Shown here piece after piece: positions 16,182 through 63,886 of a stretch of DNA of 64,000 bases (positions within the stretch are counted from its first letter, which is position 1; every line of letters starts with the position of its first letter). A model generated the notes under the pieces. It was given only the letters and a program-made list of their open reading frames with translations. It ran no database searches and had not been told where the DNA came from. A program made the translations under genes and the position numbers. Origin of the DNA: an uncultured Candidatus Saccharibacteria bacterium (GTDB lineage: Bacteria > Patescibacteriota > Minisyncoccia > Minisyncoccales > CAZVLR01); assembly GCA_964628095.1 (NCBI GenBank), contig CAZVLR010000001.1, positions 56,777 through 120,776 on the forward strand. The letters are read 5' to 3'.

Positions 16182-16473
16182 CTTTTACCCCCCCCAATAA
16201 CAAAAGGCTGTTGAAGCAATTTCAACAGCCTTTCTCTTTTAATGTTTGACTATTGTTAGAGCTTTTTATTCAGCGCCGCCCGGGTTTTGGGCCCCACCGT
16301 CCCCACCGGGCTTATTTTATTAGCCCTTTGGAATTTAATTACCGCCTTCCGGGTTAAAACGCCGTAATACCCGCCAATCTTTCCTGAGTAGAATTTCAAC
16401 TTTTTTAAGAGCTCTTGCAGTTTTTTAACCTCTGGACCCTGGTAGTCGGAATAAAGGTACTTGGTAAATTTAA
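16035..16473. repeat. copy A of a ~390-440 bp duplicated segment (3' end of giant gene + terminator + small-ORF region)
   Basis: Near-identical to 20034..20423, except for a 48-bp in-frame segment present only in copy A (about 16069-16116). Confidence 0.8.
16203..16233. terminator. bidirectional rho-independent terminator (13-bp perfect stem, 5-nt loop)
   Basis: AAAGGCTGTTGAA-gcaat-TTCAACAGCCTTT, T-rich on both sides. It sits between the small + ORF and the stop of the giant - gene. An identical copy is at 20152..20182. Confidence 0.65.
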
Positions 16474-19879: not shown

Positions 19880-20033
19880 TAATTTTTTACTGACTGGTAC
19901 GGTTTAACAAAAAATAACCGGTCAAAATTCTTTTTAATAATTGTATCATAAAAAATACGTTTCTGCAAAAATTTAATCGGAGAATAATTATTTATTAATT
20001 ATGTTAATATTTAAAAATTTTAATCGTTCTAAT

Positions 20034-20423
20034 CTTTTTTGGCTGGGTATCTGTATTAATATCTGCATATATTCTGTACATCCCCTTCTGGCACGCCCCC
20101 TGGAAACTTCTTCTTTCTCTCTTCTCTTAACTTTTACCCCCCCCAATAACAAAAGGCTGTTGAAGCAATTTCAACAGCCTTTCTCTTTTAATGTTTGACT
20201 ATTGTTAGAGCTTTTTATTCAGCGCCGCCCGGGTTTTGGGCCCCACCGTCCCCACCGGGCTTATTTTATTAGCCCTTTGGAATTTAATTACCGCCTTCCG
20301 GGTTAAAACGCCGTAATACCCGCCAATCTTTCCTGAGTAGAATTTCAACTTTTTTAAGAGCTCTTGCAGTTTTTTAACCTCTGGACCCTGGTAGTCGGAA
20401 TAAAGGTACTTGGTAAATTTAAA
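20034..20423. repeat. copy B of the duplicated segment; small-ORF remnant lacks start codon, RBS and promoter
   Basis: Identical run from the TTTTTTGGCTGGGTATCTG through the terminator hairpin and into the last ~75 codons of the 20205..23339 gene. Confidence 0.8.
20152..20182. terminator. second copy of the 13-bp-stem bidirectional terminator
   Basis: Same hairpin sequence as 16203..16233. Confidence 0.6.
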
Positions 20424-37964: not shown

Positions 37965-38597
37965 TTAAGCGCCGAAATTCCTCAGCGCCTCTGAAATTTC
38001 AACCAAATTCAAATCGAAAATTACGCCCACGCAGGCTGAAGCCAAAACCGCGCAAACCTGCTCGCCTCCGGATTTGTCTTGCAGCCAAAAGGGCACAATA
38101 TTCCCCTTGTAATTGAGTTTAAAATTGGTTCCGCCGTTTGAATGAATGTCGCTGGCCTGAAAGTTAGCGCCCTCTTCAAATCCGAAAGTCAGCGTTTTTA
38201 AATTGGTAAGCTCGGCCACCTCGCCAAAAGCTTTGTCGTCTGAATTAAAAACTAAATATCCGCCCAGGGGCGCGGTTTTTACCAGCTTTCTAATCTTTTC
38301 TATTGTTTTCTTTTCTTCAGTTTTAGCGCCCGAGCTGGCGATTACTAAAATAAGCAAAGAGGAGTTCTTCATTAAAAAATCCAGCTCGGGCAAATTTGAA
38401 AAATCGTTGTCGAAAACAAAAACTTCGCTGTTAATTTTCAAATACGGCTTTAAAACCTGGTTAATCGCTTTTTTGGCAACCAAACGCGAACTGCCGCAAA
38501 CAATAATGGTTTTGGGCTTCTTTAAGGTTATTTTTAATTTAGAAAGTATTCCCAGCATGTTATTGTGTTTGATCTGGCGCAATCTGCCATAAATCAA
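37965..38597 (-). CDS. Mur ligase central-domain-like protein with degenerate P-loop (possible murE/murF remnant)
   Basis: KTIIVCGSSRLVAKKAINQVLKPYL aligns to the Mur ligase V.GITGTNGKTTT...L P-loop region, but GKT is replaced. The C-terminal VCAVLASACVGVIFDL..ISEALRNF resembles the HN..NALAA.A.A..LG block. Only 210 aa. It sits where murE/murF normally follow ftsI. Confidence 0.45.
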   Translation of the reverse strand: MIYGRLRQIKHNNMLGILSKLKITLKKPKTIIVCGSSRLVAKKAINQVLKPYLKINSEVFVFDNDFSNLPELDFLMKNSSLLILVIASSGAKTEEKKTIEKIRKLVKTAPLGGYLVFNSDDKAFGEVAELTNLKTLTFGFEEGANFQASDIHSNGGTNFKLNYKGNIVPFWLQDKSGGEQVCAVLASACVGVIFDLNLVEISEALRNFGA

Positions 38598-40275
38598 TGA
38601 TATATTTGGCCATGTCGCGGAATAAAGGCACGGCTGATTCTTCGGCCGAACTGGTTTTGGGATTGTATACTTTAACCAGAATTACAAATTGCGGGTTTAG
38701 GGCCGGGCCAAAGCCGATAAAAGACTGAATGGTTTTATCCGAATAGCCCCTTTGATTAATGCCCAAAGAAGAATAAGGCACCTGGGCCGTGCCGGTTTTG
38801 CCGGCTAAATAATAGCCGGGAATCTTTGTTTTCCTGCCATAGCCGTTTTCCACCACGCTAATTAGCATGGCGGTTAACTGCGAGGCGGTTTTTTGGGAAA
38901 TAAGATCTGATTTTTGCACCTTGGGCACAATAGTCTGAACGCTGTCCTTTTTGATTATTTTTTCCACCAAATAGGGCCTCATTAATTTCCCACCATTAGC
39001 AATGGCTGAAAAAGCCCGAACCAGCTGAAGCGAGGTGATTTCAATGCCCTGGCCAAAAGAAGCGGTGGCAAAATTAACGTCGCTCCCCTTTTTTAAGCCC
39101 TTGTTTTGAGAAGACACCTCGCCCTGCAAATCAACGCCTGTTTTTTCAAAAAACCCGAATTTTTCAATATAGTCCAAAAAATCCTGATGGCTGATCTGGC
39201 GCTGGGCAAAAACCGCCCCGGTGTTGATCGAATTTTCAAGAACGTTAGTCATGGTTAAAAGCCCGGGCCATTTTTTCTTGTTAAAATTTGAAATAACGTA
39301 CCCGCCAATGCTTTCACTGCCCGGATCAAAATAAGTGGTTTGCGGAGTTATCTTGCCCGAATCCAGGGCCGCCGCCATGGTAATGGGTTTGAAAACCGAG
39401 CCCGGCTCGAATATTTTTTGAATGCTGGAGTTTTGAAAAATATCCAAATTCTTAACGCTAGAATAATTATTGGGGTCAAACCCGGGCCAGGTGGCTAAAG
39501 CCAAAATCTTGCCCGAATTGGGATCCATTACAATAATTTCAGCGCTTTCAAATTCAATATCCTGCTGCGCTTTTTTTAAAACGTTTTCAGCTTGAAACTG
39601 AATATGGTAGTCCAAAGTTAAAACCAGGTCACCGCCTTTGTCGGGCAGACTGGAAGAGCCTCCAGAGTTTTCGCTATCCAAATCAATGTTGCCGCTGATT
39701 AAAAAACCTTTGGGGCCCTTCTCTCTTTCTAAATAAGATTCCTGCCCTCTCAATGCGTCTTCGTAAAAAGCTTCCAATCCGTACTGCCCGGTGTCGTCGC
39801 CCCCCAAAAAGCCTGAAACCTGGGAAGCCAAAGATTCCAAAGGATAGTATCTTAAGGTTTCTGTTTTTAAATAAACGCCGGGCAATTTTAACTCTTCAAT
39901 TTTTAAAGCTTCCTCATCGCTTAATTTATTTTTTAATGTTTCGTAATTGCTTTCTTGCGTTATCTTTCCCAAAATCTCGGCCTTATCCAAATTTAAAACA
40001 AGGCTCAGCTGCTTAGCGGTTTCTTCCTTTTCTTTAATTTCATTGGGAGCCGCATAAACAAAATCGGCCTGCTGGTTAATAACCAGAGGCGACATATTGC
40101 TAAAATAGATTTCCCCCCGTTCGCCCTGGGCCAAATCCATGAATTTTTGCTGGCCAAAGGCCATAGCCCGCCACTCCTGCGTTTTTATTATCTGAAAATA
40201 AACGAGGCGACCCGCAACGATCGCCAATAAAACGCTTAAAAGAAAAAAAACTATATTAATTCTCCATTCCCTCAT
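38560..40275 (-). CDS. ftsI: penicillin-binding protein 2 / FtsI-type peptidoglycan D,D-transpeptidase
   Basis: N-terminal TM. SxxK (GSVFKP), SxN (ENSINTG) and KTG (AGKTGTAQ) are all present. Confidence 0.85.
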   Translation of the reverse strand: MREWRINIVFFLLSVLLAIVAGRLVYFQIIKTQEWRAMAFGQQKFMDLAQGERGEIYFSNMSPLVINQQADFVYAAPNEIKEKEETAKQLSLVLNLDKAEILGKITQESNYETLKNKLSDEEALKIEELKLPGVYLKTETLRYYPLESLASQVSGFLGGDDTGQYGLEAFYEDALRGQESYLEREKGPKGFLISGNIDLDSENSGGSSSLPDKGGDLVLTLDYHIQFQAENVLKKAQQDIEFESAEIIVMDPNSGKILALATWPGFDPNNYSSVKNLDIFQNSSIQKIFEPGSVFKPITMAAALDSGKITPQTTYFDPGSESIGGYVISNFNKKKWPGLLTMTNVLENSINTGAVFAQRQISHQDFLDYIEKFGFFEKTGVDLQGEVSSQNKGLKKGSDVNFATASFGQGIEITSLQLVRAFSAIANGGKLMRPYLVEKIIKKDSVQTIVPKVQKSDLISQKTASQLTAMLISVVENGYGRKTKIPGYYLAGKTGTAQVPYSSLGINQRGYSDKTIQSFIGFGPALNPQFVILVKVYNPKTSSAEESAVPLFRDMAKYIIDLWQIAPDQTQ

Positions 40276-52011: not shown

Positions 52012-53064
52012 TTAGTTATTGTTTAAGTATTTATCCTGGGCCGCCTGGTGCTCTTTATAAGTTTTGCTAAAAATAGTCTGGCCTTGGGGAGTAGATAAGT
52101 AAAACCAATAGTCGCTACTTTTAGGATATAACGCGGCTTTTATGCTTTCAAGCCCGGGGCTGGCAATCGGGCCCAGAGGCAGGCCTTTGTATTTATAAGT
52201 GTTATAGGGCGAGTCGATCTGGGTTTCCAAAATCGATATGTTAGCGTTGTTTTTATTGGTAATGTAGTTGACGGTCGAACAAAGTTGCAGCGGCATGCCG
52301 GCTTTTAACCTTTTCCATAAAAGACCCGAAACCAATTCTTTGTCTTTTACCGTCATCACCTCCCTTTCAATCAAAGAAGCCATGGTAATTATCTCAAAAT
52401 AAGATTTGCCCTGCTTTTTAATTTCCGCTTTTAATTCCGGCGTTAACTTTTCATCCAGATTTTTAATCATTAATCTCACAATGTTTTCCAATTTCTCCCC
52501 CTTTTTTATCTTGTAGGTATCGGGAAACAAATAGCCTTCTAAGGTAACGTTCTGTGGTTTGTCTTTTAAAATGTCGAATTCCTGGCTAAGGTCCTGGGGT
52601 TTTGGCGCATCGGTTTTTTTTGAATAATCAGTTAAAGGATAGCCGGTTATTTCAAAAAGCTCTTCTGATTGAAACAGGCCCCTTTGCTCAAGATAAGAGG
52701 CAATATCCCTTAAATCCCAGCCTTCGATAATAGTAATAGTTTCTGTCGCCACTTCGCCCCCGGCGATTTTATATACAATTTCAGGAACATTCATTGAAGG
52801 AGAAATTTCATAATCTCCGGCTTTTAATTCTTTGGCTTTACCCGAAATTAAAACATAAACCTGGAAAAACAGCGCCTGTTTTATCAAGCCCTCCTTTTCC
52901 AAGTTTTTGGCAATTTCTGTTCCGCCTTCGCCCTTTTTAACGGAAAATGATTTAAAACCGATATCGTTGGGATTTTTAGCCTGGTAAATCCCCTGCCAGA
53001 AATAAGAAAAAGACAGCACTAAAATAGCTATTAAAATAAAAATGGGGATGAAAGCTTTTTTCAT
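52012..53064 (-). CDS. mltG: endolytic murein transglycosylase MltG (YceG-like)
   Basis: N-terminal TM. Conserved YKGLPLGPIASPGLESIKAAL...YWFYL region. Confidence 0.8.
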   Translation of the reverse strand: MKKAFIPIFILIAILVLSFSYFWQGIYQAKNPNDIGFKSFSVKKGEGGTEIAKNLEKEGLIKQALFFQVYVLISGKAKELKAGDYEISPSMNVPEIVYKIAGGEVATETITIIEGWDLRDIASYLEQRGLFQSEELFEITGYPLTDYSKKTDAPKPQDLSQEFDILKDKPQNVTLEGYLFPDTYKIKKGEKLENIVRLMIKNLDEKLTPELKAEIKKQGKSYFEIITMASLIEREVMTVKDKELVSGLLWKRLKAGMPLQLCSTVNYITNKNNANISILETQIDSPYNTYKYKGLPLGPIASPGLESIKAALYPKSSDYWFYLSTPQGQTIFSKTYKEHQAAQDKYLNNN

Positions 53065-53784: not shown

Positions 53785-54891
53785 TTAACCGGCCCAATAA
53801 TTATTCACAAATAGAATTATATACAGGGCTAAAAGCAGAATTGAAATAATAATCCAGGACATTTTAAGGTATTCGTTCTTAATTTTAGCCAGTATAATAT
53901 AAATTGGAAACAAAACTAAAATATAGCGGTTAATGCTCATTAAGGTGCCCGAGCTCAAGGCAATAGCTACAGTAGAAAGCATGTAAATGCCATAAGACGC
54001 CCTTAACTTTTTAAAAACAAAGAAGATTATTAAAAGAATAAAGGCAACGAAAAAAGCGTCCAAGCAAAAATTAGTTATGGCCGAACTGCTGAAAAACTTA
54101 AAGTGCTCTTTGTTAAGATTAAAGAACCTCCCCCACCAGGCTTCCACCCAAAAAAATAAAAAGAAGTTTTTGAATTTTAGGTAATGGTAAATAAAAAACG
54201 AAAAAAGCCCCAAAGGAATTAAAAAAAGCGGCAGAATTTTCCTGTTTAGCGCTTCTTTTATTTTAAAGTTATAAACTTTCAAATACTCCCAAAGTACCGG
54301 TAAAAACAGCAAAACGCCGGTTACCCTGGATAGCGAACTTAATAAGCCAAAAACGCCGGCCCAGAAAAACTTTTTCTTTAGAGAATAATAAAAGGTGGCC
54401 AAAGAAAGGAAGAGAAACAAGGATTCGGTATAAACGGCGTTTAAGAAAAAAGCGGCCGGGAAAATAAGCAAAAAGAAGATGGGCAAATAGGGATCGACCT
54501 CGGAATGGAATTCCTTAGTTATTTTATAAAGATAAACCAGGGATAAAAACAGAAAAATTACGCTGATCAGCCAGCCGGCCAAAATATAATTACCTAGAGT
54601 AAAAAAAGAAACTACCTTGATCAAAAAGGGATATAAAGGAAAAAAGACTATATTGGACAGCTTTTCAACCCCCTTGTAAGAATAGCCGTTTTGGGCGATA
54701 TCCAAATACCAAAAAGAATCCCATTTGGCGTGAAGGAAAACCGGATTCCAGGTTTTTTCCTGAAAGAATTTAGCCGGATCAATCCAGTTATAAGCCTGAT
54801 CGCCAACAAGATTTAAACGGTTAAGCGCCAATAAACCGAATAAATTAACAACAACCAACCAAAATAATAAAATTAAGGCTATTTTTTTCAT
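53785..54891 (-). CDS. polytopic membrane protein, GT-C type glycosyltransferase-like (PIG-V/mannosyltransferase-like)
   Basis: At least 9 TM helices. HAKWDSFWYLDIAQNGY resembles the PIG-V/DUF2029 signature. Confidence 0.4.
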   Translation of the reverse strand: MKKIALILLFWLVVVNLFGLLALNRLNLVGDQAYNWIDPAKFFQEKTWNPVFLHAKWDSFWYLDIAQNGYSYKGVEKLSNIVFFPLYPFLIKVVSFFTLGNYILAGWLISVIFLFLSLVYLYKITKEFHSEVDPYLPIFFLLIFPAAFFLNAVYTESLFLFLSLATFYYSLKKKFFWAGVFGLLSSLSRVTGVLLFLPVLWEYLKVYNFKIKEALNRKILPLFLIPLGLFSFFIYHYLKFKNFFLFFWVEAWWGRFFNLNKEHFKFFSSSAITNFCLDAFFVAFILLIIFFVFKKLRASYGIYMLSTVAIALSSGTLMSINRYILVLFPIYIILAKIKNEYLKMSWIIISILLLALYIILFVNNYWAG

Positions 54892-55163
54892 TAACTTTTT
54901 CTATAAAATTTCCTTAGCCACCACTTTTTAAAAAGAGGAACGGTTAAGGTGGAAACAACAAAGGCAATTGCCGGAACAATGGCATTAATAAATGGTTTGG
55001 GCAATCGCGCAAAAAAGAAGAATATTACGATAACGATATAAGTAAAAAGCAGAATAATAACTTTTCTCGTCCAGCTTGTTTCCCAGGCCTTATCCGCTTC
55101 CACCCGCTGATTCCGCTTTTTAATCTCGTTTATTTCCAATTGTAGTTCTTCAATTGAGGGCAT
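54891..55163 (-). CDS. small two-TM protein
   Basis: 90 aa. A charged N-terminal helix, then two hydrophobic stretches. Confidence 0.4.
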   Translation of the reverse strand: MPSIEELQLEINEIKKRNQRVEADKAWETSWTRKVIILLFTYIVIVIFFFFARLPKPFINAIVPAIAFVVSTLTVPLFKKWWLRKFYRKS

Positions 55164-55188
55164 AATTAATTTTTATTAAAATAATAAA

Positions 55189-56451
55189 TTACTTTTCTAG
55201 CTCAATAATTACAATTTCTTCAGCCTCATCAAATTTTGAAGGCAACCGGCGAATTTTAACGGCTAAAGCTTTTCCATCCGGACTAAAGCCAAAAGTGGCT
55301 ACGGTTATGCCGCTCAGAGAATACTCTTGATAGCCTGGCACATTAAAATGACTTAACCTCTGCTGATTTGAGCCGTCGGCATCCATAATCCAAAAATCGG
55401 AACGCAAATTATCGCCTACAATATCGCCGTTCTTATCCCGATTTTGAGCCGTATCCTGGCTGGACATAAAAACGATTTTTTGGCCATCTGGTGAAAATTT
55501 AGCAAATTCATCCCATTCCAATGGCGTATTGGTTAATCTAGTAACTTTTTGCGTCTTTAAATCATAGAAAAATTCATCCAAGGCCGTTAACTTTGAATAG
55601 TAAGTTTTCTTATTTTTATCTTCCGGAAAGGCTGAATAGATTATTTTTGAATTGTCAGGTGAAAACCCATTAGTTTCATAAAACTGCATATTGCCCGGTT
55701 TAACCTCAATTATATTTGTAAGCTTCGGCTCTCCGTTTTCCACCATAAAATCAGCAACTTTCATTACCCAACTGCCCCAGGATTCCGGATCGTAGCTGAC
55801 TTTTTCCGCCCAGAGAATTTTTTTGCCGTCATAGGAAAATTTTGGATGAAGCACTCCCATGCGGGCAGCCACCTGGGTTATTTGCCAAAATTGTGATCCA
55901 TCGGCATTGGTTATCCAAAGATTGTTATTCAGCCCGCCGCCCGGAGTCCTGGCAAAGCGTTCTAGAATTTTTAATTTAGAAAATAATTCAGTATCCTCTG
56001 ATTGAAAAGCGATAAATTTACCGGAAGGATGCCAACTAGGATTGCCATTCATCCCTTGCGGTATATTGGATTTATTGCAAGTTAGGCATTTTTCATTCAT
56101 TCCATCTAGATTAATCGTCCAAATATCATAATTGCCGTCTTTCTCCTTACGATCAAAAGCAATGATATTATTCGGTCCCCATTCTACCCGTCCGCCTTTA
56201 TTAGTTAAGGTTCTGACATTTTTAACCTTATAAGTTGTTGAGTCGGGAAAATTTTTTCCGTTATTGGCGTTGCAATCAATCGAACAGCTTCCATTTTTTT
56301 GTTCCCATTTTTGGCAAATACTATCACCACATTTGGATTTTTGATAATTTTTTAGCAATATAAAGCCAATTACTAATAAAATTATAACTATCAAGACAAT
56401 AATTAAAAGTTTTTTGTTTGCCATATATTTAAAATTATTTTTCAAACTCAA
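55189..56451 (-). CDS. TM-anchored PD40/TolB-like beta-propeller protein with N-proximal 4-Cys motif (paralog family member 1)
   Basis: TM (LLIIVLIVIILLVIGFILL), followed by CGDSICQKWEQKNGSCSIDCNANNG. PD40-type repeats (GNPSWHPSGKFIAFQ, WITNADGSQFWQIT, FSPDG). Confidence 0.7.
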   Translation of the reverse strand: MSLKNNFKYMANKKLLIIVLIVIILLVIGFILLKNYQKSKCGDSICQKWEQKNGSCSIDCNANNGKNFPDSTTYKVKNVRTLTNKGGRVEWGPNNIIAFDRKEKDGNYDIWTINLDGMNEKCLTCNKSNIPQGMNGNPSWHPSGKFIAFQSEDTELFSKLKILERFARTPGGGLNNNLWITNADGSQFWQITQVAARMGVLHPKFSYDGKKILWAEKVSYDPESWGSWVMKVADFMVENGEPKLTNIIEVKPGNMQFYETNGFSPDNSKIIYSAFPEDKNKKTYYSKLTALDEFFYDLKTQKVTRLTNTPLEWDEFAKFSPDGQKIVFMSSQDTAQNRDKNGDIVGDNLRSDFWIMDADGSNQQRLSHFNVPGYQEYSLSGITVATFGFSPDGKALAVKIRRLPSKFDEAEEIVIIELEK

Positions 56452-58117
56452 TGATTACGATTTTCTCGTTTTGCCAAAATTCTCCAGGATATGTCCTGAG
56501 CTTGATAACAATCTGTGTGCCGTCAGGATTCCAGCTATGTTCTGCAACTACTGCGCCATCAGCTGTTAATTCCGGATAAACCGTTGAATCGGTGAGCGAA
56601 GAATTAAAATGAGTCAATCTTTTCTTGTTGGATCCGTCTGGATCCATTATCCATAAGTCCTGTTTTTGTTCTCCTGCCACAACATAGCCATCAGCATTTC
56701 TATTTTGCAGAATGTCCAAAGTTGAAGTCCAAATTATTTTGTTTCCATCTGGAGTAAATAGAGCGAATTCATCCCATTCATATTGTGTTCCGGTTAAGGA
56801 AGTCAGCTGCTGAGTATCCAAATCATATATAAATTCATCAAAGCTTTGGGCGGGCAAGTCTTCTTGAGAAGCCGAAAAAGTGATTTTATCATCATTCGGA
56901 GAAAAGCCATGTGTTTCATAAAGCCCCATGTCGCCGGGCTGTATTCCTTGAATATTGCTAATGGTTGGCACACCATCGACAACTGAAAAATCAGCTATTT
57001 TTATTTCCCACTGCCCCCAAAAACCCGAAAAGCAATTGGCGGGAAAGGTCATCCGCTCAGCCCAAATAAGCTTGGTTCCGTCGTGGGAAAATTCGGGATG
57101 CAGCACTCCTTTCCTGTCGGTCATAAAAGTTAGTTGCCAAAATTGGCTGCCGTCTGGATTAGTAATCCAAAGATCATTGTTAATGCCGCCACCGGGACTT
57201 TCAGCAAAGTTTTCACATACAAGATTCGATAAATCAGGATTTTCAGACTGGAAAACTATATAATTGCCAGAGGGATGCCAGCTGGGATTGCCATTCATAT
57301 GAGGATCGCCAGCCTCGGCGCAGGTTAGGCATTTTTTGCCGGAGCCGTCAGGATTCATTGTCCAGACATCATAGAATCCGTCGATTCCCATTCGGTCAAA
57401 GGCAATGATATTATTTTTGCCCCAATTTACTCGTCCGCCGCTTTCGGTTATAGTTGTAATACTTTTTATTTCATAACTGCCCGGTGGCGGTGGCGGATTT
57501 GGTATAAAAGCCAACTGCGAACCACCGCATAAAGGAGTAATCCTTATACCCCCTCTATTATCTTGGTCCAAAATATCACATTCCAAGCCCAAGTCTTCTG
57601 AACAATAACTAATGCCGTAATGGCAGGGACTCTCCTCTGTGCCCAGATTAATAGAAGTATATCCGTAAATATAGCGGTACTTTGAATTATTAACCGGGTC
57701 TTTGGGCGGACCGTCGGGGAACCAATCTTTTAGGATTTCTTTAAAGCTATTACCCCAGTCAGATCCCCCATTAATGCTGCCGTCTCCTACAGAGGCAGCT
57801 GCCAAACAATAAAGATTGTCTGCGTCTTCCAAACAGCTTTGGGTCGGATCGCAAAGAACATTCCAAAATGCATCTGGCCCGCCTTCCCCAAGGCAAGCTG
57901 CCGCTTCAGAACCGTTGGGGTTGGGATAATACCCGTAAAAAGTATAATGGGCGTTAAGCGCCAGCCTTAATTGGTTGGTTTCAGCCGCTCTCTTGGCGTC
58001 TCGGCCCTCCTTCTTGGCGCTATCAAGCACTATGAAAACAATCGTGGTAAGAAGCCCGATAATGCTAATTACTACTAGCATCTCAATTAAAGTAAACCCT
58101 TTTGATCTTTCATGCAT
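56435..58117 (-). CDS. type IV pilin-like N-terminus fused to PD40 beta-propeller domain (paralog family member 2)
   Basis: Class III signal MHERSKGFTLIEMLVVISIIGLLTTIVFIVL (G-FTLIEML). C-terminal domain is homologous to the neighbours (GNPSWHPSGNYIVFQSE, WITNPDGSQFWQLT). Confidence 0.7.
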   Translation of the reverse strand: MHERSKGFTLIEMLVVISIIGLLTTIVFIVLDSAKKEGRDAKRAAETNQLRLALNAHYTFYGYYPNPNGSEAAACLGEGGPDAFWNVLCDPTQSCLEDADNLYCLAAASVGDGSINGGSDWGNSFKEILKDWFPDGPPKDPVNNSKYRYIYGYTSINLGTEESPCHYGISYCSEDLGLECDILDQDNRGGIRITPLCGGSQLAFIPNPPPPPGSYEIKSITTITESGGRVNWGKNNIIAFDRMGIDGFYDVWTMNPDGSGKKCLTCAEAGDPHMNGNPSWHPSGNYIVFQSENPDLSNLVCENFAESPGGGINNDLWITNPDGSQFWQLTFMTDRKGVLHPEFSHDGTKLIWAERMTFPANCFSGFWGQWEIKIADFSVVDGVPTISNIQGIQPGDMGLYETHGFSPNDDKITFSASQEDLPAQSFDEFIYDLDTQQLTSLTGTQYEWDEFALFTPDGNKIIWTSTLDILQNRNADGYVVAGEQKQDLWIMDPDGSNKKRLTHFNSSLTDSTVYPELTADGAVVAEHSWNPDGTQIVIKLRTYPGEFWQNEKIVIIEFEK

Positions 58118-58156
58118 GGGTTAATATATTTTGTGCTTGCTTTTTATATCTCTATT

Positions 58157-59389
58157 TTAATCCTGGTGTTTTTCAAATTCAATAACAATAATTTTTTCGT
58201 TGTCATCAAAATTACCCGGCATTACCCGCGTTTTAACCGCCATCCTACTTCCGTCGGGACTCCAGCTGTAATCAGCCGGATTGGTGCCAGCCGGGTTGTA
58301 TTCCGAATAACCTGGCTCGTTAAAGTGTGTGAGCCGGGCTAAATTTTTTCCATCAGCATCCATAATCCAGAAATCAGATTTAAGCTTATTGCCTTCTATA
58401 ACTCCTTTGGCATTGCGAATTTGATTGATGCCCATGCTCGACATAAGAATTATTTTTTTCTGATTTGGCGTCAACATCGCAAATTCGTCCCATTCCTTGG
58501 GCGAATTGGTAAAATTGGTAAGCTTCTGGGTTTTTAAATTGTAACTGAACTCGTCAAAACTTTGCGACGCTTCATATCTTTTGGAAGCGGAAAAAAATAT
58601 TTCGGAATTGTCTTTGGAAAAACCGTTAACTTCATACAATCCCATATTTCCCGGCTGGATTTCTTGGATATTGGAAATTTTAGGTTCGCCATTGATAATA
58701 TTAAAATCGGCAATTTTAATAGACCATTGTCCCCAAAAATCATTAGTAAAGCTCTTGGAAAGCGCAATTCTTTCAGACCATAATAATTTTGTGCCGTCCG
58801 GTGAAAAATGTGGATGCAAAACACCCAACCGATTGGTCACATGTGTTAACTGCCAGAATTGGCTGCCGTCGCGATTAGTAACCCATAAATTATTATTAAT
58901 CCCTCCGCCGGGATGCGTCGCCCATTTTTCTAAAAAGGGCACGGATAAATTTGGATCTTCCGCTTGGAAAACAATATAATTGCCAGAAGAATGAATAGTT
59001 GGATTACCATTCATTTTCTGAGGGATCCCCGCTTTTTCACAAGTTAGGCATTTTTTATTGGAACCGTCGGGATTCATCGTCCAGATGTCATAAAACTTAT
59101 CATCTCCCTTGCTATCATAGGCAATATAATCGTTGGTCGGAGACCAATCAACCCTACCGCCTTTTTCGGCAATAGTTGTTATGGATTTTATTTTATAATC
59201 GCTTGCTGGGCCATTAGGAATATTTTTACAATCATTGGCGCAGGTTTCATTTTTTTGTTCCCATTTCTGGCAGATATTATCTCCGCATTTTGACTGGCGC
59301 CAGAAAAATAATAAAGCTAATGCAATAAATATTATAACAACAACTATTAAGATAATTTTTGTTATTTTTTTCATATTTTTTATTTCCAC
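58157..59389 (-). CDS. TM-anchored PD40 beta-propeller protein with CGDNICQKWE...C..DC motif (paralog family member 3)
   Basis: TM, then CGDNICQKWEQKNETCANDCKNIPNG, then PD40 repeats. Confidence 0.7.
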   Translation of the reverse strand: MEIKNMKKITKIILIVVVIIFIALALLFFWRQSKCGDNICQKWEQKNETCANDCKNIPNGPASDYKIKSITTIAEKGGRVDWSPTNDYIAYDSKGDDKFYDIWTMNPDGSNKKCLTCEKAGIPQKMNGNPTIHSSGNYIVFQAEDPNLSVPFLEKWATHPGGGINNNLWVTNRDGSQFWQLTHVTNRLGVLHPHFSPDGTKLLWSERIALSKSFTNDFWGQWSIKIADFNIINGEPKISNIQEIQPGNMGLYEVNGFSKDNSEIFFSASKRYEASQSFDEFSYNLKTQKLTNFTNSPKEWDEFAMLTPNQKKIILMSSMGINQIRNAKGVIEGNKLKSDFWIMDADGKNLARLTHFNEPGYSEYNPAGTNPADYSWSPDGSRMAVKTRVMPGNFDDNEKIIVIEFEKHQD

Positions 59390-61584
59390 TCAATAATTTT
59401 ATTTTTATCAACTGGACAGCCCAGAGCTTCAAATTCCTGGATAGTCTGGTAATGCACTATGGGCTGATACGGACCCATAACATTAGATTTATTTTCGCCA
59501 ATTAAGCTTTTGTTATACGTTGTCTGATACCAGGAACCGGTTTTCCAAGGAATGTTTTGGTCGGTCGGTGCATATTCTTTCATATAATTATCAGGATAAA
59601 CATTCATCCACCTCATAATCAATCCTTGCGTAGATTCTGGGCCAATGTTTTGCCAGGTGATGCCGCATTCTGGCCTGGCATTTGAAGGTTTCTCTTTTTG
59701 ACCATAAACAATAATATAATCATTATTATTGTCTCTTACCACATTTTCATCTAGTAAGCAGCCATAAACCAGCCCGTTATACATGTCATCTTGCCCTCCG
59801 CCAGTATGGCAGATTGACCAATAACGCGCTTGAGTTTTTTGAGTTGTGCTTTCTCCATTTCTGGTTTTTGGGGTTGTCGGAATCCGGCCGGTAATTGCAT
59901 AAACATGATTCGGAGTCACAGCAATACTACGGTGGAGATACATATCATACGGGCAGTCCGTGGCACTGTGCCCGATATTGCCCGGAGGAGCTGCATCAGG
60001 GCCCTTATTGGTTTGGCAGGCATATTGTTCTTGGAGCACTTTTTTAACTGTGTTTTCAGGCAACTTGCCAAAGGGTTGGGCTTTTTGGATTGCTGCGCCT
60101 TCGGCCCAAATAAGAAAAATATCAAACATTTTCCACCAACCCATAGATGAGCCAAGAATAGCTGGAACTTTTGCTAATGGTTTTTCCTCATAACCAGGAA
60201 CTATTCTTGCTAGAAGCTGGTCAATTTTAGAAGTATCTGGCTGAATCCAGAATTCTTCGCCAGTTTTTAATTTAAATAGCGCCTTAGGAAGCGAAACTCC
60301 ACCATAGGGATTTTTGCCGTTATCTGGAACATAATAACGCAACCATAAAATTGCTGGCGAAAGCATTCCATTGCCAATAGCGCCAGTGGATGAAAACGGC
60401 CCGCCAACACGCGTATTTCCCTGTGCTCTAAAATATTCGTTTTGCAATACTGGATTTAAATCGACCATGTTGCCTTGCTTTAAATCAAAATAAGCATGAT
60501 AGTGCCGATTAGTTGCGTTTCTGTTTTCGCCCACTCTGAATGGATTTATGTTTCCCGGGTCAGGATTGATATCTGCATCAATCAATGGCACTTCCATCTG
60601 GCCGCGGTTGCCGGCATAAGGAAATTGCGGATCAAAGGGCGGAGAAACTTGCAAGCTCATAAATCGGGCATGCGGAAAATCACCCTCAATAACCAATTGA
60701 GAATCATAAGGCGCGATATAGATTAATTTTTGGTAGGTTACATGAGTAGCGGCATTGTTCATGCGCAGATGTTGCCAATTATCTGAATCTGGCTCTTCTC
60801 GAGCAGGAATTCCATACCATTGTTCTTCTGCTGTAATTTCATCGGGCTTATATAATTTCCAGTGATTGGTTTTTGCATTATCAATATCTTCTCCCAGATA
60901 GCCGGCCGGAATTTCAGCAGGATTTTTGCCAGCCAGCCAGCCCCTGATATAATCTTCTAGTTTTTTTGAAAGTTCTTGGCCGGCTACTATTTGTTTTTTA
61001 TAGAATTCAGAATTTTTAGAATAAGGATCTTCTTTTTTACAAATATCTAAGATTTGATTAGCTGTTAAGCCCGGAAGGTTTACGGTAGAGATTCTGCCCG
61101 CATCTCTGCCTTCGGGCATTTTTGTTTTTAAGGCAACGCTTTTTTCCTGCTTGTTATAGCTGACTGATATTTTGCCCGAGCAAGCGCCGTGGCCGGTATT
61201 CCAAACAATAGCGCTGCCTTGGTTTGATCCTTGAATTGTGCCGCAGCCGGAAACTTCCCATTTGGGAGTGCCAAATTTTGTACATTCAGGATCGTCTTTA
61301 CCATTGGAACATTTAAAATTAACTATTTCATAGAGGCCGAAAACATCATTGGTGTTTTTAGGATTTATTGCCAGGCCTTCTTCTATTATGCCTTCGCAAT
61401 CCGCAGAGCAGGTGCCTTTGTTAAGCTCCCATCTTTGGCAGATATTATCTCCGCATTTTGACTGGCGCCATTTATTTGCAACAAATAATAAAGTTAAAAC
61501 AACAAATATTATTGCCAAAATAATTAAGACGTTTTTTATTGTTTTGTTCATATTTTTAATTTTGCTTGCCGCAGGCGCCGGCAA
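59380..61584 (-). CDS. TM-anchored large hypothetical protein sharing the CGDNICQRWE...C..DC motif (family member 4, non-propeller)
   Basis: TM (VLIILAIIFVVLTLLFV), then CGDNICQRWELNKGTCSADCEGII. The remaining ~650 aa show no motif I recognise. Confidence 0.6.
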   Translation of the reverse strand: MPAPAASKIKNMNKTIKNVLIILAIIFVVLTLLFVANKWRQSKCGDNICQRWELNKGTCSADCEGIIEEGLAINPKNTNDVFGLYEIVNFKCSNGKDDPECTKFGTPKWEVSGCGTIQGSNQGSAIVWNTGHGACSGKISVSYNKQEKSVALKTKMPEGRDAGRISTVNLPGLTANQILDICKKEDPYSKNSEFYKKQIVAGQELSKKLEDYIRGWLAGKNPAEIPAGYLGEDIDNAKTNHWKLYKPDEITAEEQWYGIPAREEPDSDNWQHLRMNNAATHVTYQKLIYIAPYDSQLVIEGDFPHARFMSLQVSPPFDPQFPYAGNRGQMEVPLIDADINPDPGNINPFRVGENRNATNRHYHAYFDLKQGNMVDLNPVLQNEYFRAQGNTRVGGPFSSTGAIGNGMLSPAILWLRYYVPDNGKNPYGGVSLPKALFKLKTGEEFWIQPDTSKIDQLLARIVPGYEEKPLAKVPAILGSSMGWWKMFDIFLIWAEGAAIQKAQPFGKLPENTVKKVLQEQYACQTNKGPDAAPPGNIGHSATDCPYDMYLHRSIAVTPNHVYAITGRIPTTPKTRNGESTTQKTQARYWSICHTGGGQDDMYNGLVYGCLLDENVVRDNNNDYIIVYGQKEKPSNARPECGITWQNIGPESTQGLIMRWMNVYPDNYMKEYAPTDQNIPWKTGSWYQTTYNKSLIGENKSNVMGPYQPIVHYQTIQEFEALGCPVDKNKIIEWK

Positions 61585-63703
61585 ATTTTATTTTATAAAT
61601 ATCTCCGTTGATATGCGGGCCACTGGTTTCTTCGCTGGAAACATGCGACATATAAATGGCTGCGCCGCTTGGATCCCAGCTTTGTTCTTCATTATGTTTG
61701 GCCAAGGTGTCATATTCTGGATAACCAGGAGTGTTGAAATGAGTGATTTGTACCAGATTGCTGCCATCCGGATTCATCAGCCAAATTTCATCATTGGTGG
61801 CTGGGTATTTGTCCATTATTTTGATGGCGATTTTTTTGCCATCAGGAGAATAAGCAATTTCTTCTTCCACTTGCGGGGTATTGGTAATTTGCTTCAAATT
61901 TCCTCCGTTTAAATCAGTGGTATAAATATCCGGCCAAAGTTCGGTGCCATCAGGACTTTTGGTCAAATCAGAATAGGAATAAATAAATCCTTTATTGTCA
62001 AAAGTAAATCCTTCGGGCTCAACCATAGTGAAATTAGCTGGAGGATTAACAGTTTTTATATCAGCGACAATCGGTTTGCCACTGGCGTCATATGTGATTT
62101 TTGTATATTTGGCGCGCCAGATACATAGTTCTTCGCCCTTGCGCAAGGAAAAACTTTCTACACCCCACCAACAACCCGGATGCTTATCTACTCCTGGCTT
62201 GCCATTGGGGTATTTTTCCATCATAAACTCTTCTCCCCAAGTAATCATAGTGCCGTCAAAGGAATAATAAGGTTCAATCATCCCCCAATTGTCCGGATAA
62301 TCAGTAATCTGCCAAAAAGCCGAGCCATCAGCTTTGGCGATCCAAACATTATAATTTCTGCCAATGCCTGGTCGGGCTGTGGTGCCTATGCCTTTTCTGG
62401 GATATTTGGCTGATTCAGCGCCAAAGATAATATATTTGCCATCTGGCGACCAAGCTGATTGGCCGCGATGGCGGGTATTGGCCAAAGCCGCTTTGCCACA
62501 AGTTAAGCATTGAATATTGGAAAAATCTGCATTCATGGTAAAAACTTCGAATTGATCGTTAACTTCATCGGTAAAAGTTATCTTTCCCTGGGGCGAAGTC
62601 CTGGGGAACGAGCCATTAACTGCGGTTTTTTCCACGCTAACAACTTTGCAGGGGTTCTCATTCCCCACCGGTTTTTCGGCTAAAATCCCCGCCTCGTAAC
62701 CCTCAACCTCCTGGGGTAAAGCTGCAAAAGCGCCGTAGATATCGTTTAATTCGTACCAGCACATTTTGGTGTCTTGAGAACATTCCAAGGGCTCGCCCAA
62801 AATGCCAGCGTTCCTTCTTTTGGTAGCATCGCCTTCGTATCCTGGCCAAGTAATGGTTGTTTTATAGGTTACTAATATTTCTTTGCCAATGTAAGAATCC
62901 TTTTTAGAATAATCGTCAAAAGATAAGCCGATTAATCCGGATTCCGGCCCATCTTTGGCGTATTTTACAAAATAGGAGCCGATTTTTTGGTACTGAGCGC
63001 TAGAATCAAAAACCGAGAGCTCGCCCGAAGACCAGGTAATTACGTTGTCGCCCGCCTCAATATTTAATTCGCCCCAAGTGCCGTCCCAAAACATGGGTTC
63101 GATAGTGGACGTGCCCACCAGTTTTTTGCATAAAATAGTCTCGTCTTCCTGGATTAATTTTACGCTTTTACCAATGTCTTCCAAATTAAGCGCCACCTGC
63201 GGAGAACCAATATCGGGATGATATGTAAAAAGGGCAGGCCAGCCAAAAGCCACCATATAGGCGCCCTGTTTTTCAACCGAACCCGAACAGGAGACTTGCT
63301 GGGCTGTTTGAGCCAGAACCGTACCAACGCTTGCCAAGCCAATGCTTGAAGTCTGATTTGTCTGTTTTAACCCTTGAAGTAGTTTTAATTTTATTAATTG
63401 CTTGATCCTTTCGGGGATTACTCTTTTTGAAGAATTTAAGCTGATAATCTGCTCTTTAATGCCCTGGTATTGCTTGAGTTTTTCAATAAGAGCTTGTCGC
63501 CTTTGCTGCATTAGCTCAATCGCAGCATTCTTTCTGCTTTCCAACATTTTCTTTCGAAAATTAGAAAGAAGATAAAGAAACAAAGCTCCTAGAAGAATAA
63601 CAATAAGCACAATAATTAAGGTTTTTTGCCAGGTTTTTAAACTAAATCCTTTTTTAACTTCACCCGAAGTTACGGGTGTTTGAAGATTATTTTCTTGAGG
63701 CAT
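61556..63703 (-). CDS. TM-anchored coiled-coil protein with C-terminal PD40 beta-propeller (family member 5)
   Basis: TM (LIIVLIVILLGALFLYLL), then coiled-coil. PD40 repeats (WSPDGKYIIFGAE, WIAKADGSAFWQIT, YSPDGKKIAIK, WLMNPDGSN). Confidence 0.65.
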   Translation of the reverse strand: MPQENNLQTPVTSGEVKKGFSLKTWQKTLIIVLIVILLGALFLYLLSNFRKKMLESRKNAAIELMQQRRQALIEKLKQYQGIKEQIISLNSSKRVIPERIKQLIKLKLLQGLKQTNQTSSIGLASVGTVLAQTAQQVSCSGSVEKQGAYMVAFGWPALFTYHPDIGSPQVALNLEDIGKSVKLIQEDETILCKKLVGTSTIEPMFWDGTWGELNIEAGDNVITWSSGELSVFDSSAQYQKIGSYFVKYAKDGPESGLIGLSFDDYSKKDSYIGKEILVTYKTTITWPGYEGDATKRRNAGILGEPLECSQDTKMCWYELNDIYGAFAALPQEVEGYEAGILAEKPVGNENPCKVVSVEKTAVNGSFPRTSPQGKITFTDEVNDQFEVFTMNADFSNIQCLTCGKAALANTRHRGQSAWSPDGKYIIFGAESAKYPRKGIGTTARPGIGRNYNVWIAKADGSAFWQITDYPDNWGMIEPYYSFDGTMITWGEEFMMEKYPNGKPGVDKHPGCWWGVESFSLRKGEELCIWRAKYTKITYDASGKPIVADIKTVNPPANFTMVEPEGFTFDNKGFIYSYSDLTKSPDGTELWPDIYTTDLNGGNLKQITNTPQVEEEIAYSPDGKKIAIKIMDKYPATNDEIWLMNPDGSNLVQITHFNTPGYPEYDTLAKHNEEQSWDPSGAAIYMSHVSSEETSGPHINGDIYKIKFAGACGKQN

Positions 63704-63815
63704 AGATTTTTTAATTAATTAGTTATTTTTAATATATTATATAACCATTTAATTTATTATACAATTAAAACGCCCTTTTTAAATGGGGTTAAATTACAGA
63801 AATTCATTATATTTG

Positions 63816-63886
63816 CGGGGGCACAAGGATTCGAACCTCGATCACTTCTTTTGGAGAGAAGTATTCTGCCGTTGAACTATGCCCCC
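63816..63886 (-). tRNA. tRNA-Trp (anticodon CCA)
   Basis: GGGGGCA-TA-GTTCAACGGCAGAAT-A-CTTCT-CTCCAAA-AGAAG-TGATC-GAGGTTCGAATCCTT-G-TGCCCCC-G. CCA is not encoded. Confidence 0.8.

What the first reader, a model, noticed from the sequence alone, without database searches (positions are those of the whole stretch)
55189..63703. Tandem array of five paralogous membrane-anchored surface proteins (PD40 beta-propellers, shared 4-Cys motif, one with a pilin N-terminus)
Five consecutive minus-strand genes, slightly overlapping each other, each start with a single TM anchor or pilin-type signal. Four carry homologous PD40/TolB-like beta-propeller domains with recurring blocks such as GNPSWHPSGxxIxFQ and WITNxDGSQFWQ. 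Three (55189, 58157, 59380) carry an identical-register motif directly after the anchor, C-G-D-[NS]-I-C-Q-[KR]-W-E-x(4,5)-C-x(2)-D-C, which I do not recognise as a named domain. The family looks like a diversifying surface-protein array, fed by recent duplication. It lies directly downstream of tRNA-Trp. It is the best candidate in this window for an undescribed surface or host-interaction system.
Basis: partly seen in the sequence, partly recalled or inferred. Interest (0 to 1): 0.75.

Follow-up and report, generated by a model that had tools for sequence, protein, structure and literature searches.

The report
Tagged surface propeller gene cassette
Five neighbouring genes encode proteins tethered to the outside of the cell membrane (four six-bladed propellers, one on a pilin stalk, plus an unrelated protein), and the same kind of gene set, marked by the same short four-cysteine tag, recurs in distant uncultured microbes, so it looks like a conserved but uncharacterised surface apparatus, not a fast-evolving private gene family.

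Summary
Five co-directional minus-strand genes lie downstream of tRNA-Trp. Four carry PD40 propellers. G1, G3 and G4 share C-G-D-x-I-C-Q-[KR]-W-E...C..DC directly after the anchor. G2 has a true prepilin signal.

Corrections:
- The gene overlaps disappear with ATG starts.
- G4 shares only the anchor and tag. Its body belongs to an unannotated family whose fold resembles three structural-genomics proteins of unknown function.
- G5 is at most 33% identical to other propellers.
- The duplications are old. G1 is closer to proteins of other organisms than to G2 or G3.

New findings:
- The four-Cys motif is a widespread 19-20 residue repeat (404 representative clusters) with no Pfam or NCBIfam model.
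- Its "CGDGICQ" subtype is an N-terminal tag of this cassette.
- Tagged propellers occur in arrays in 9 of 10 loci, untagged ones in 6 of 67.
- A distant lineage has a lipoprotein cassette with a G5-type propeller, a G4-family protein and canonical propellers, all tagged.
- The propeller family conserves nine His/Asp/Glu residues on inner strands. The window's copies keep 7, 6, 5 and 2.

Best reading: a membrane-tethered capture or processing apparatus, with one unit displayed on a type IV filament. It is not TolB. Function is untested.

The parts
63815..63886 (-). tRNA-Trp (CCA), 112 nt upstream of G5 on the same strand
   Evidence: ARAGORN; Rfam RF00005 at 66.3 bits
63756..63783 (-). Promoter-like site (TTTAAA-16-TATAAT) between the tRNA and G5. 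It is a consensus match only.
61556..63703 (-). G5, 715 aa. Hydrophobic anchor at aa 28-46 (nt 63566-63622). Helix-rich then beta-rich N-domain of unknown type at aa 50-351 (nt 62651-63556). Divergent 'type B' propeller at aa 352-715 (nt 61559-62650). It keeps only 2 of the 9 family-conserved His/Asp/Glu residues.
59380..61584 (-). G4, 734 aa (723 aa from the ATG at 61551). Anchor at nt 61480-61530. Four-Cys tag at nt 61396-61455. Ig-like beta-sandwich at nt 61120-61371. Helical linker at nt 60934-61101. About 495-aa C-terminal domain at nt 59383-60867. About 560-580 aa of G4 (linker plus C-terminal domain, from about aa 164) are shared with homologues of an unannotated family (86 clusters).
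58157..59389 (-). G3, 410 aa (405 aa from the ATG at 59374). Anchor at nt 59303-59365. Four-Cys tag at nt 59228-59287. Six-bladed propeller at nt 58160-59194. It keeps 7 of the 9 conserved residues.
56435..58117 (-). G2, 560 aa, a modular pilin. Prepilin signal plus alpha1 helix at aa 7-31 (nt 58025-58099). Cys-rich pilin head at aa 32-164 (nt 57626-58024). Relic of the four-Cys tag at aa 165-184 (nt 57566-57625). Pro-rich linker at nt 57476-57502. Propeller at nt 56438-57478. It keeps 6 of the 9 conserved residues.
55189..56451 (-). G1, 420 aa. Anchor at nt 56353-56409. Four-Cys tag at nt 56272-56331. Propeller at nt 55192-56235. It keeps 5 of the 9 conserved residues.
53785..55163 (-). Two co-directional membrane-protein genes directly downstream: a 90-aa protein and a 368-aa polytopic protein with a weak GT-C/PMT_2 resemblance. 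Whether they belong to the system is unproven.

Best explanation
**What it is.** An operon-like cassette of proteins held on the outer face of the cytoplasmic membrane. Four members are differentiated paralogues of a large, uncharacterised family of six-bladed PD40/Tricorn_N-like propellers. The fifth, G4, has an unrelated beta-rich body: an Ig-like domain followed by a domain whose nearest folds are structural-genomics proteins of unknown function.

**How the members are attached.** Each is tethered by an N-terminal anchor. G1, G3 and G4 have a transmembrane helix followed directly by a 20-residue four-cysteine, acid-rich tag (CGDxICQ[KR]WE...C..DC). G5 has a transmembrane helix followed by a long stalk. 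In G2 a type IV pilin module has replaced the anchor, so this propeller can be built into, or onto the tip of, a type IV filament.

**How it probably works.** Family-wide, the propeller carries nine nearly invariant His/Asp/Glu residues on the innermost strands of blades II-VI. I read these as a metal-dependent binding or catalytic centre at the central channel. All four copies in this genome have partly lost it. They therefore more probably act as ligand-capturing modules than as full enzymes. The tag most likely forms a small disulfide-stabilised (possibly cation-binding) membrane-proximal stalk or assembly module that keeps the components together at the surface. Overall this is a surface capture or processing apparatus for an extracellular macromolecule (peptide or glycan, identity unknown). 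It is neither a Tol-Pal component nor a rapidly diversifying antigen family.

**Shown.** Gene order, homologies, folds, recurrence of the cassette, the association of the tag with arrays, and the pilin signal.

**Inferred.** Outside topology, the metal centre, binding versus catalysis, cooperation between the components, and display on a pilus.
For: **Architecture.** Gene layout, domains and homologies are.

**Conserved residues.** Counts out of 115 family members, in G3 405-aa numbering:

| Residue | Conserved in |
|---|---|
| H128 | 96 |
| H187 | 113 |
| H189 | 94 |
| E248 | 115 |
| H250 | 111 |
| D296 | 110 |
| E297 | 114 |
| H298 | 106 |
| D368 | 110 |

Eight of the nine lie in the first strand of blades III-VI in the model; H128 sits directly after the first strand of blade II. 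G3 keeps 7, G2 keeps 6, G1 keeps 5 and G5 keeps 2.

**Recurrence of the cassette.** L089/L090/L123/L153 carry six adjacent lipoprotein genes, each with the tag:
- a 415-aa protein of unknown type;
- a divergent propeller;
- a G4-family protein, 45% identical to G4;
- a Kazal-propeller;
- a G5-type propeller, 39.6% identical to G5;
- a canonical propeller.

Tagged arrays are also present in L075, L076, L095 and L111.

**Tag and arrays.** Nine of 10 loci with a tagged propeller hold two or more propeller genes. Only 6 of 67 untagged loci do (Fisher p = 3e-7).

**Fusion.** L146 encodes one 772-aa protein that joins the 415-aa-type domain to a propeller.

**Tag exchange within the genome.** The G3 and G4 anchor-plus-tag modules are about 80% identical in DNA. 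They share the derived Asn (CGDN) where other lineages have CGDG.

**G2 as a pilin.** PF07963 and TIGR02532 both score above their cutoffs. Residues 4-66 match solved pilins at E 3.6e-6. The modular-pilin concept comes from PMC8179133.

**Wider context.** Family members elsewhere sit beside secreted hydrolases and transporters: type I phosphodiesterase, sulfatase, alpha/beta hydrolase, MFS and CstA.
Against: - No biochemical or expression data exist.
- I could not inspect model coordinates, so the clustering of the nine residues at the channel is inferred from strand positions only.
- The tag is modelled at only about pLDDT 70-76. Its disulfide or metal state is unknown.
- The loci behind the tag-array association are not independent. 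They represent about four lineages, and tandem duplication of an already tagged gene explains part of the association.
- G4-family genes in three other genomes stand alone, without propellers.
- The closest propeller homologues (P0002, P0007) are single-copy. The components can therefore work on their own.
- No pilus assembly genes were seen in the ORFs I annotated in this 64-kb window.
- The substrate is unknown.
Confidence: 0.45

Rival explanations
1. TolB-like envelope tether. The membrane-anchored propellers bind peptidoglycan or a wall-associated partner. They would link membrane and wall in an organism without an outer membrane, as a housekeeping envelope function analogous to Tol-Pal.
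For: - Cell-wall genes lie nearby: MltG/YceG at 52012-53064, a PBP transpeptidase at 38560-40275, and PG_binding_1 proteins at 16256-23339.
Against: - The TolB equivalog model TIGR02800 scores 34-66 bits against a cutoff of 343.
- No Pfam match to a TolB N-terminal domain, and no tol-pal genes among the neighbours annotated.
- The nine-residue His/Asp/Glu set defines this family. I know of no such centre in TolB, but that is from memory and was not compared here.
- The genomic context of family members varies and is often rich in hydrolases.
- Copy number ranges from one to five, which is not housekeeping behaviour.
Confidence: 0.12
2. A diversifying adhesin array for host or partner attachment. 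The paralogues offer alternative binding specificities, and one is exposed on a pilus.
For: - Surface tethering, and a propeller grafted onto a pilin.
- Modular pilins are typically adhesins (PMC8179133).
- The putative centre is eroded in all four window copies, which fits binding better than catalysis.
Against: - The paralogues are old, at 50-59% identity or, for G5, at most 33%.
- Each paralogue type has orthologues in other lineages, and the cassette composition is conserved.
- No near-identical copies, no variable cassettes and no recombination repeats were found beyond the exchange of the anchor-plus-tag module.
- The lifestyle of the organism is unknown.
Confidence: 0.2
3. A protease-related system. 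The propellers descend from the substrate-gating propellers of S9 or tricorn peptidases. They would capture or deliver peptides to separate peptidases or transporters, or regulate proteolysis at the surface.
For: - Weak hits to DPPIV_N, Dpp5, lasso-peptide isopeptidase and an S9 peptidase.
- Precomputed Tricorn_N matches.
- A Kazal protease-inhibitor domain in the array member P0023.
- The peptide/pyruvate transporter CstA next to P0002.
- P0083 is fused to alpha/beta-hydrolase domains.
Against: - No peptidase domain occurs in any window gene or in its immediate neighbours.
- All the similarities are generic PD40-blade matches far below family cutoffs.
- Other contexts point to phospho- or sulfo-ester and glycan enzymes.
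Confidence: 0.15

Closest known systems
TolB C-terminal beta-propeller (Tol-Pal system)
   Different: - No Pfam match to a TolB N-terminal domain.
- Far below the TolB equivalog cutoff.
- Membrane- or pilin-anchored, not soluble.
- No tol-pal neighbours.
- Carries a conserved His/Asp/Glu set and a CLTC motif that define this family (not compared against TolB here).
- Multi-copy.
Atu1656 (PDB 2ojh) and other standalone 'PD40 domain-containing' / Pfam Tricorn_N-type propellers
   Different: Identity is only 17%. Atu1656 has no described function either, so the match gives a fold class and not a mechanism.
Modular type IV pilins (S. sanguinis PilB/PilC; Raynaud et al. 2021, PMC8179133)
   Same: G2 has a class III signal peptide, a pilin module, a short linker and a grafted bulky functional module. 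This is the architecture defined in that paper, which reports 264 different architectures.
   Different: - The grafted module is a PD40 propeller preceded by a decayed four-Cys tag.
- G2 is a paralogue of neighbouring TM-anchored proteins, so the anchor was swapped for a pilin.
- No assembly genes were seen in the window.
- Incorporation into a filament is untested.
DUF1254/DUF1214-type structural-genomics proteins (PDB 6ans, 2p3y, 3u07)
   Different: - They cover only about half of the C-terminal region.
- No sequence match to any Pfam model in 39 family members, and none to PDB.
- The assignment of these PDB entries to DUF1254/DUF1214 is from my memory and was not tested.
- Their function is unknown too.
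Small extracellular cysteine-rich repeats: Pfam RET_CRD (PF22540), DUF4215 / Myxococcus cysteine-rich repeat (PF13948)
   Same: - A canonical copy of the tag aligns to RET_CRD positions 44-73 (E 5e-4).
- 19 of 105 proteins carrying the repeat hit RET_CRD.
- P0126 has a DUF4215 repeat at the place where G4 has the tag.
   Different: - The window copies hit neither model at E <= 10.
- The RET_CRD hit is below its cutoff.
- Proteins consisting of 5-13 copies of the repeat hit no Pfam or NCBIfam model.
- The C-x4-C-x9-C-x3-C unit of 19-20 aa is shorter than either named domain.
- No PDB sequence contains it.

Membership tests
TolB (Tol-Pal system protein) | Scores above the equivalog HMM cutoff (TIGR02800, 343 bits) | tested here: not met
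   G1 66.3, G2 51.8, G3 34.3 and G5 45.8 bits
TolB (Tol-Pal system protein) | N-terminal TolA-binding alpha/beta domain ahead of the propeller | tested here: not met
   No Pfam hit other than PD40 or N_methyl. The N-termini are a TM helix plus Cys tag, a pilin module, or a long helix-rich then beta-rich region.
TolB (Tol-Pal system protein) | Six-bladed PD40 beta-propeller | tested here: met
TolB (Tol-Pal system protein) | Encoded with tolQ/tolR/tolA/pal | tested here: not met
   The neighbours are PCMT, MltG, DJ-1, ClpB-like and membrane proteins. Only part of the window was annotated.
Type IV pilin / pseudopilin (G2 only) | Class III signal peptide: short charged leader, Gly-1, Phe+1, Glu+5, and an N-terminal hydrophobic alpha-helix | tested here: met
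   Sequence MHERSKG|FTLIEMLVVISIIGLL. PF07963 scores 31.5 bits (cutoff 21.2) and TIGR02532 scores 30 (cutoff 16.3). Solved pilins align to residues 4-66 at E 3.6e-6.
Type IV pilin / pseudopilin (G2 only) | Globular pilin head after alpha1 | tested here: inconclusive
   Residues 32-164 are Cys-rich with no family or PDB match beyond alpha1.
Type IV pilin / pseudopilin (G2 only) | Prepilin peptidase and assembly ATPase/platform present in the genome; the protein is incorporated into filaments | not testable with these tools
   Only 64 kb of the genome is available. None was found among the ORFs annotated. The genome is not in the GTDB representative set.
Modular pilins (PMC8179133) | An N-terminal pilin module fused through a linker to a domain not specific to pilus biology | tested here: met
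   Pilin module, then a PNPPPPPGS linker, then a PD40 propeller 51-57% identical to the TM-anchored G1 and G3.
Uncharacterised PD40/Tricorn_N-like standalone propeller family (at least 909 clusters) | Full-length similarity to the family, and the CLTC motif | tested here: met
   Homologues at E 1e-60 to 1e-143 covering 75-100% of the query. C109 and C112 are present in all four window copies.
Uncharacterised PD40/Tricorn_N-like standalone propeller family (at least 909 clusters) | The nine-residue His/Asp/Glu constellation (H128, H187, H189, E248, H250, D296, E297, H298, D368) | tested here: not met
   G3 keeps 7 of 9, G2 keeps 6, G1 keeps 5 and G5 keeps 2. The H298F change is shared by the whole subclade. 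The 'type B' G5 orthologues also lack it.
DUF1254/DUF1214-like proteins (G4 body) | Match to the Pfam sequence models | tested here: not met
RET_CRD / DUF4215 cysteine-rich domains (four-Cys tag) | Score above the Pfam gathering cutoff | tested here: not met
   The window tags give no hit at E <= 10. A canonical tag scores 20.6 bits against a cutoff of 26.

The most novel reading that the evidence does not exclude
The 'CGDGICQ...C..DC' element placed directly after a lipid or TM anchor is a previously undescribed assembly or sorting tag. It would mark and organise a conserved, cross-lineage surface machine. The machine would be built from a new family of metal-dependent six-bladed propeller enzymes, their inactivated paralogues, and two further unannotated protein families (the G4 type and the 415-aa type). 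In this organism one unit has been moved onto a type IV filament.
Probability: 0.22. Interest if true: 0.75.

Novelty: new variant of a known kind. Interest (0 to 1): 0.55.

Why it matters
Most large surface proteins of uncultured, small-genome bacteria have no assigned role. Here three unannotated families are tied together by gene order, by one gene fusion and by a shared short tag:
- a propeller family with at least 909 clusters;
- the G4 family;
- a 415-aa family.

The tag has no model in Pfam or NCBIfam even though it occurs in hundreds of protein clusters. This yields concrete, testable handles:
- a candidate metal centre for a new propeller enzyme class;
- a candidate membrane-proximal assembly tag;
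- a new pilin-grafted module.

If the tag does organise a surface complex, it could be used to find further components by sequence alone.

Tried and rejected
- **Third homologue search.** I ran it with the 40-column tag profile. It found nothing because the word index gave only 3 candidates, so the search was wasted. The exhaustive representative search answered the question instead.
- **Sequence searches of PDB.** G4, its family profile, the 415-aa protein, the G5 N-domain and the tag all gave nothing significant.
- **G4 and propellers as an obligatory pair.** I looked for conserved synteny. Three G4-family loci (L058, L059, L061) and L071 have no propeller nearby. I therefore rejected a universal operon. 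The pairing is limited to tagged cassettes.
- **The GTDB genome scan.** It did not contain the source genome or close relatives. Synteny at the tRNA-Trp site in sister genomes and the taxonomy of the organism could not be established.
- **The 2026 'cysteine-rich repeats' preprint.** It describes a different cysteine spacing and is not this motif.
- **The 415-aa array protein as a glycoside hydrolase.** This was my guess from sequence. Pfam and PDB gave no support, so I dropped it.
- **The 21-nt inverted repeat bracketing the array.** I judged it to be chance in AT-rich spacers.
- **Mobile island or phage origin.** None is indicated: GC content is flat and the neighbours are housekeeping genes.


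Full report
**1. What is in the sequence**

The window carries five co-directional minus-strand ORFs:

| Gene | Coordinates | Length |
|---|---|---|
| G5 | 61556-63703 | 715 aa |
| G4 | 59380-61584 | 734 aa |
| G3 | 58157-59389 | 410 aa |
| G2 | 56435-58117 | 560 aa |
| G1 | 55189-56451 | 420 aa |

- tRNA-Trp(CCA) lies 112 nt upstream of G5, at 63815-63886.
Public gene calls use ATG starts (G3 405 aa, G4 723 aa), which leave gaps of 4, 5, 39 and 10 nt. The genes are still packed like an operon.
- A promoter-like site lies between the tRNA and G5. No strong terminator lies inside the array.
- GC content is flat at 0.39-0.42.
- The flanks are housekeeping genes. On one side are RNase III, S16, TrmD and NUDIX. 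On the other are two membrane proteins, PCMT, MltG and DJ-1.
- The same locus appears on contigs from several metagenomes.
- The source genome is not among the GTDB representatives, so the organism is unidentified.

**2. The propellers**

- PD40 scores above its cutoff in G1, G2, G3 and G5.
- G1, G2 and G3 are 51-57% identical to each other. G5 is 29-30% identical to them.
- The alignment-based AlphaFold model of G3 is confident, with pLDDT 90.7.
- The family profile finds TolB propellers at E 7.5e-14, and S9 peptidase and oligogalacturonate lyase propellers weakly.
- These are not TolB proteins. TIGR02800 scores 34-66 bits against a cutoff of 343. There is no Pfam match to a TolB N-terminal domain and there are no tol-pal neighbours.
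- They belong to a large unnamed family of at least 909 clusters. Members come from Acidobacteriota, Aminicenantes, Theionarchaea, Desulfobacteraceae, Caldisericia, WWE3 and others. Their only labels are 'PD40 domain-containing' or Pfam Tricorn_N.

**3. A conserved polar constellation**

Across 115 family members, nine His/Asp/Glu residues are nearly invariant. In the model, eight of them lie in the first, innermost strand of blades III-VI, and H128 sits directly after the first strand of blade II. Counts, in G3 405-aa numbering:

| Residue | Conserved in (of 115) |
|---|---|
| H128 | 96 |
| H187 | 113 |
| H189 | 94 |
| E248 | 115 |
| H250 | 111 |
| D296 | 110 |
| E297 | 114 |
| H298 | 106 |
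| D368 | 110 |

- A CLTC motif is also conserved, in 92% of members.
- I infer a metal-dependent binding or catalytic centre at the central channel. I could not inspect coordinates, so this remains an inference.
- The window copies are degenerate. G3 keeps 7 of 9, G2 keeps 6, G1 keeps 5 and G5 keeps 2.
- The H298F change is shared by the whole subclade that contains G1-G3.

**4. Age of the duplications**

- G1's nearest relatives are proteins of other organisms (P0007, P0004 and P0006, at 57-59%), not G2 or G3.
- G2 and G3 are 59% identical. P0002, from another organism, is almost as close to them.
- G5 belongs to a separate 'type B' lineage with its own orthologues, 38-40% identical, in L089, L100, L111 and L152.
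- The duplications are therefore old and the copies are differentiated. They are neither recent nor diversifying.
- The closest homologues, P0002 and P0007, are single-copy genes in unrelated contexts.

**5. G4**

- G4 shares only its anchor and Cys motif with G1 and G3.
- Most of the rest (about 560-580 aa, from about aa 164) belongs to a family of 86 clusters with no Pfam domain. The family occurs in Acidobacteriota, Theionarchaea, Deltaproteobacteria, Planctomycetota and others.
- The model is confident, with pLDDT 92.2. It shows a TM helix, the tag, an Ig-like sandwich, a helical linker and a large beta-rich domain.
- No sequence match to PDB was found.

**6. G2**

- G2 starts with a canonical class III signal, MHERSKG|FTLIE.... 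It is the only one in the window.
- Its first 66 residues align with solved type IV pilins.
- After the signal come a Cys-rich head, a decayed copy of the tag (aa 165-184, aligned under the motif), a Pro-rich linker and the propeller.
- This is the 'modular pilin' architecture of Raynaud et al. (PMC8179133).
- The relic of the tag suggests that a pilin module replaced the TM anchor of a G3-like gene.

**7. The four-Cys motif**

- The motif has no hit in Pfam or NCBIfam, and no PDB sequence contains it.
- An exhaustive profile search of 1.84 billion representative proteins found 404 clusters at E <= 1e-3.
- The unit is CG[DN]GxC-x(8-10)-C-P-x-DC, 19-20 aa long.
- Among the top 150 hits, 54 carry four or more copies, and one carries up to 23 matched stretches. 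Twenty-three carry one copy just after the signal or lipobox.
- Partner domains include PD40, GH5, trypsin, GH42, RCC1, FGE-sulfatase, NosD and transglutaminase. This marks the repeat as a promiscuous extracellular module.
- The nearest named models are RET_CRD, which is hit by 19 of 105 such proteins while a single canonical tag stays below its cutoff, and DUF4215.
- The 'CGDGICQ' subtype found in this window is more specific. Of the N-terminal-tag representatives of this subtype, 11 are propeller-family proteins and one is of the 415-aa type. Most of the rest are short fragments.

**8. The cassette recurs**

- A metagenome scan with the propeller alignment returned 80 loci. Local HMMs showed 15 of the 77 loci with a called propeller gene to hold two or more copies, with arrays of three to five.
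- L089/L090/L123/L153 carry six adjacent genes. All six are lipoproteins whose lipobox is followed at once by the tag. In order they are:
  1. a 415-aa protein of unknown type;
  2. a divergent 'type C' propeller;
  3. a G4-family protein, 45% identical to G4;
  4. a Kazal-propeller with two tags;
  5. a G5-type propeller;
  6. a complete-site propeller.
- L075, L076, L095 and L111 hold similar tagged arrays. L075 includes a double-propeller protein of 781 aa.
- Nine of 10 loci with a tagged propeller are multi-copy, against 6 of 67 untagged loci. Fisher p is 3e-7, and 5e-5 for loci of at least 6 kb. The tagged loci represent only about four lineages.
- L146 fuses the 415-aa-type domain to a propeller in one protein.
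- Within the window, the anchor-plus-tag modules of G3 and G4 are about 80% identical in DNA, more than the propeller blocks at 60-77%. They share a derived Asn (CGDN). This indicates exchange of the module between unrelated genes.
- G4-family genes without the tagged array stand alone.

**9. Interpretation**

- The data fit a conserved set of membrane-tethered extracytoplasmic proteins that work side by side. The four-Cys element would serve as a membrane-proximal stalk or assembly tag. The propellers would be the ligand-handling units. In this genome all propellers have eroded centres and one is moved onto a pilin.
- The contexts of untagged relatives suggest nutrient scavenging. They include type I phosphodiesterase, sulfatase, alpha/beta hydrolase, MFS and CstA transporters, and PMT_2-type glycosyltransferases. 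They do not fix a substrate.
- The rival readings are a TolB-like wall tether, a diversifying adhesin array and a protease-associated propeller set. All three are weaker, for the reasons listed under each.
- Confidence in the main reading is moderate (0.45), because topology, the metal centre, cooperation between components and pilus display are all inferred.

**10. Verdict**

- The parts belong to known superfamilies (PD40 propeller, type IV pilin). What is new is the tagged multi-paralogue cassette, the pilin-grafted propeller, the unmodelled four-Cys repeat and the candidate metal centre.
- I rate it a new variant of a known kind, with interest 0.55.

Noticed in passing
window 55171-55191 and 63750-63770: A 21-nt AT-rich inverted repeat (81% complementary) brackets the five-gene array almost exactly. 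It is probably chance in AT-rich spacers.
   Followed up: no
window 63629-63655 (G5 aa 17-25): G5 has a pilin-like 'KKGFSLKTW' before its hydrophobic segment. It has Thr instead of Glu at +5 and charged residues inside the helix start. It gives no N_methyl HMM hit. It could be a decayed or atypical pilin signal.
   Followed up: partly
window 57566-57625 (G2 aa 165-184) and 62744-62785 (G5 aa 307-320): Degenerate relics of the four-Cys tag align under the motif columns: CHYGISYCSEDLGLECDILD in G2 and ECSQDTKMCWYELN in G5. This suggests that both genes descend from tagged ancestors.
   Followed up: partly
window 53785-54891 (-); loci L128, L129, L130, L145: The 368-aa polytopic membrane protein two genes downstream of G1 resembles PMT_2 (GT-C glycosyltransferase) weakly, at E 0.01. 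Clear PMT_2 genes (E 4e-10) neighbour propeller genes in four other loci. This may hint at glycosylation of these surface proteins.
   Followed up: partly
window 16256-19879 and 20205-23339 (-): Two very large putative secreted proteins. One is 1207 aa, with beta-helix/DUF5123, GDSL esterase and PG_binding_1 domains. The other is 1044 aa, with PG_binding_1 as its only recognised domain.
   Followed up: no
L146:5666-7984 (+); L075:1099-3444 (+): Fusion proteins. One is a 772-aa protein joining the 415-aa-type domain of the distant cassette to a propeller. The other is a 781-aa protein with two propellers in tandem behind one tag.
   Followed up: partly
L072 (GCA_024276465.1, JAJRXD010000100.1): Three propeller-family genes lie within 10 kb, interleaved with a 694-aa type I phosphodiesterase and two MFS transporters. 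Sulfatase and phosphodiesterase neighbours recur in L138, L139 and L144 and in related loci (L109, L126, L131).
   Followed up: partly
L153:10001-11386 (P0023): One array member carries two copies of the tag plus a Kazal-type protease-inhibitor domain ahead of its propeller.
   Followed up: no
G1-G5, family-wide (G3 aa C109/C112 in 405-aa numbering; window about 59039-59050): A CxxC motif (CLTC) between blades I and II is conserved in 92% of the family and in all four window copies. It could be a structural disulfide, a redox site or a metal site.
   Followed up: no
window 56955-57263, 58581-58979, 59830-60150, 61349-61912, 61995-62267 (+): Plus-strand ORFs of 90-187 aa lie antisense to the array genes. 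They look like by-products of the coding strand and were not supported by any search.
   Followed up: no
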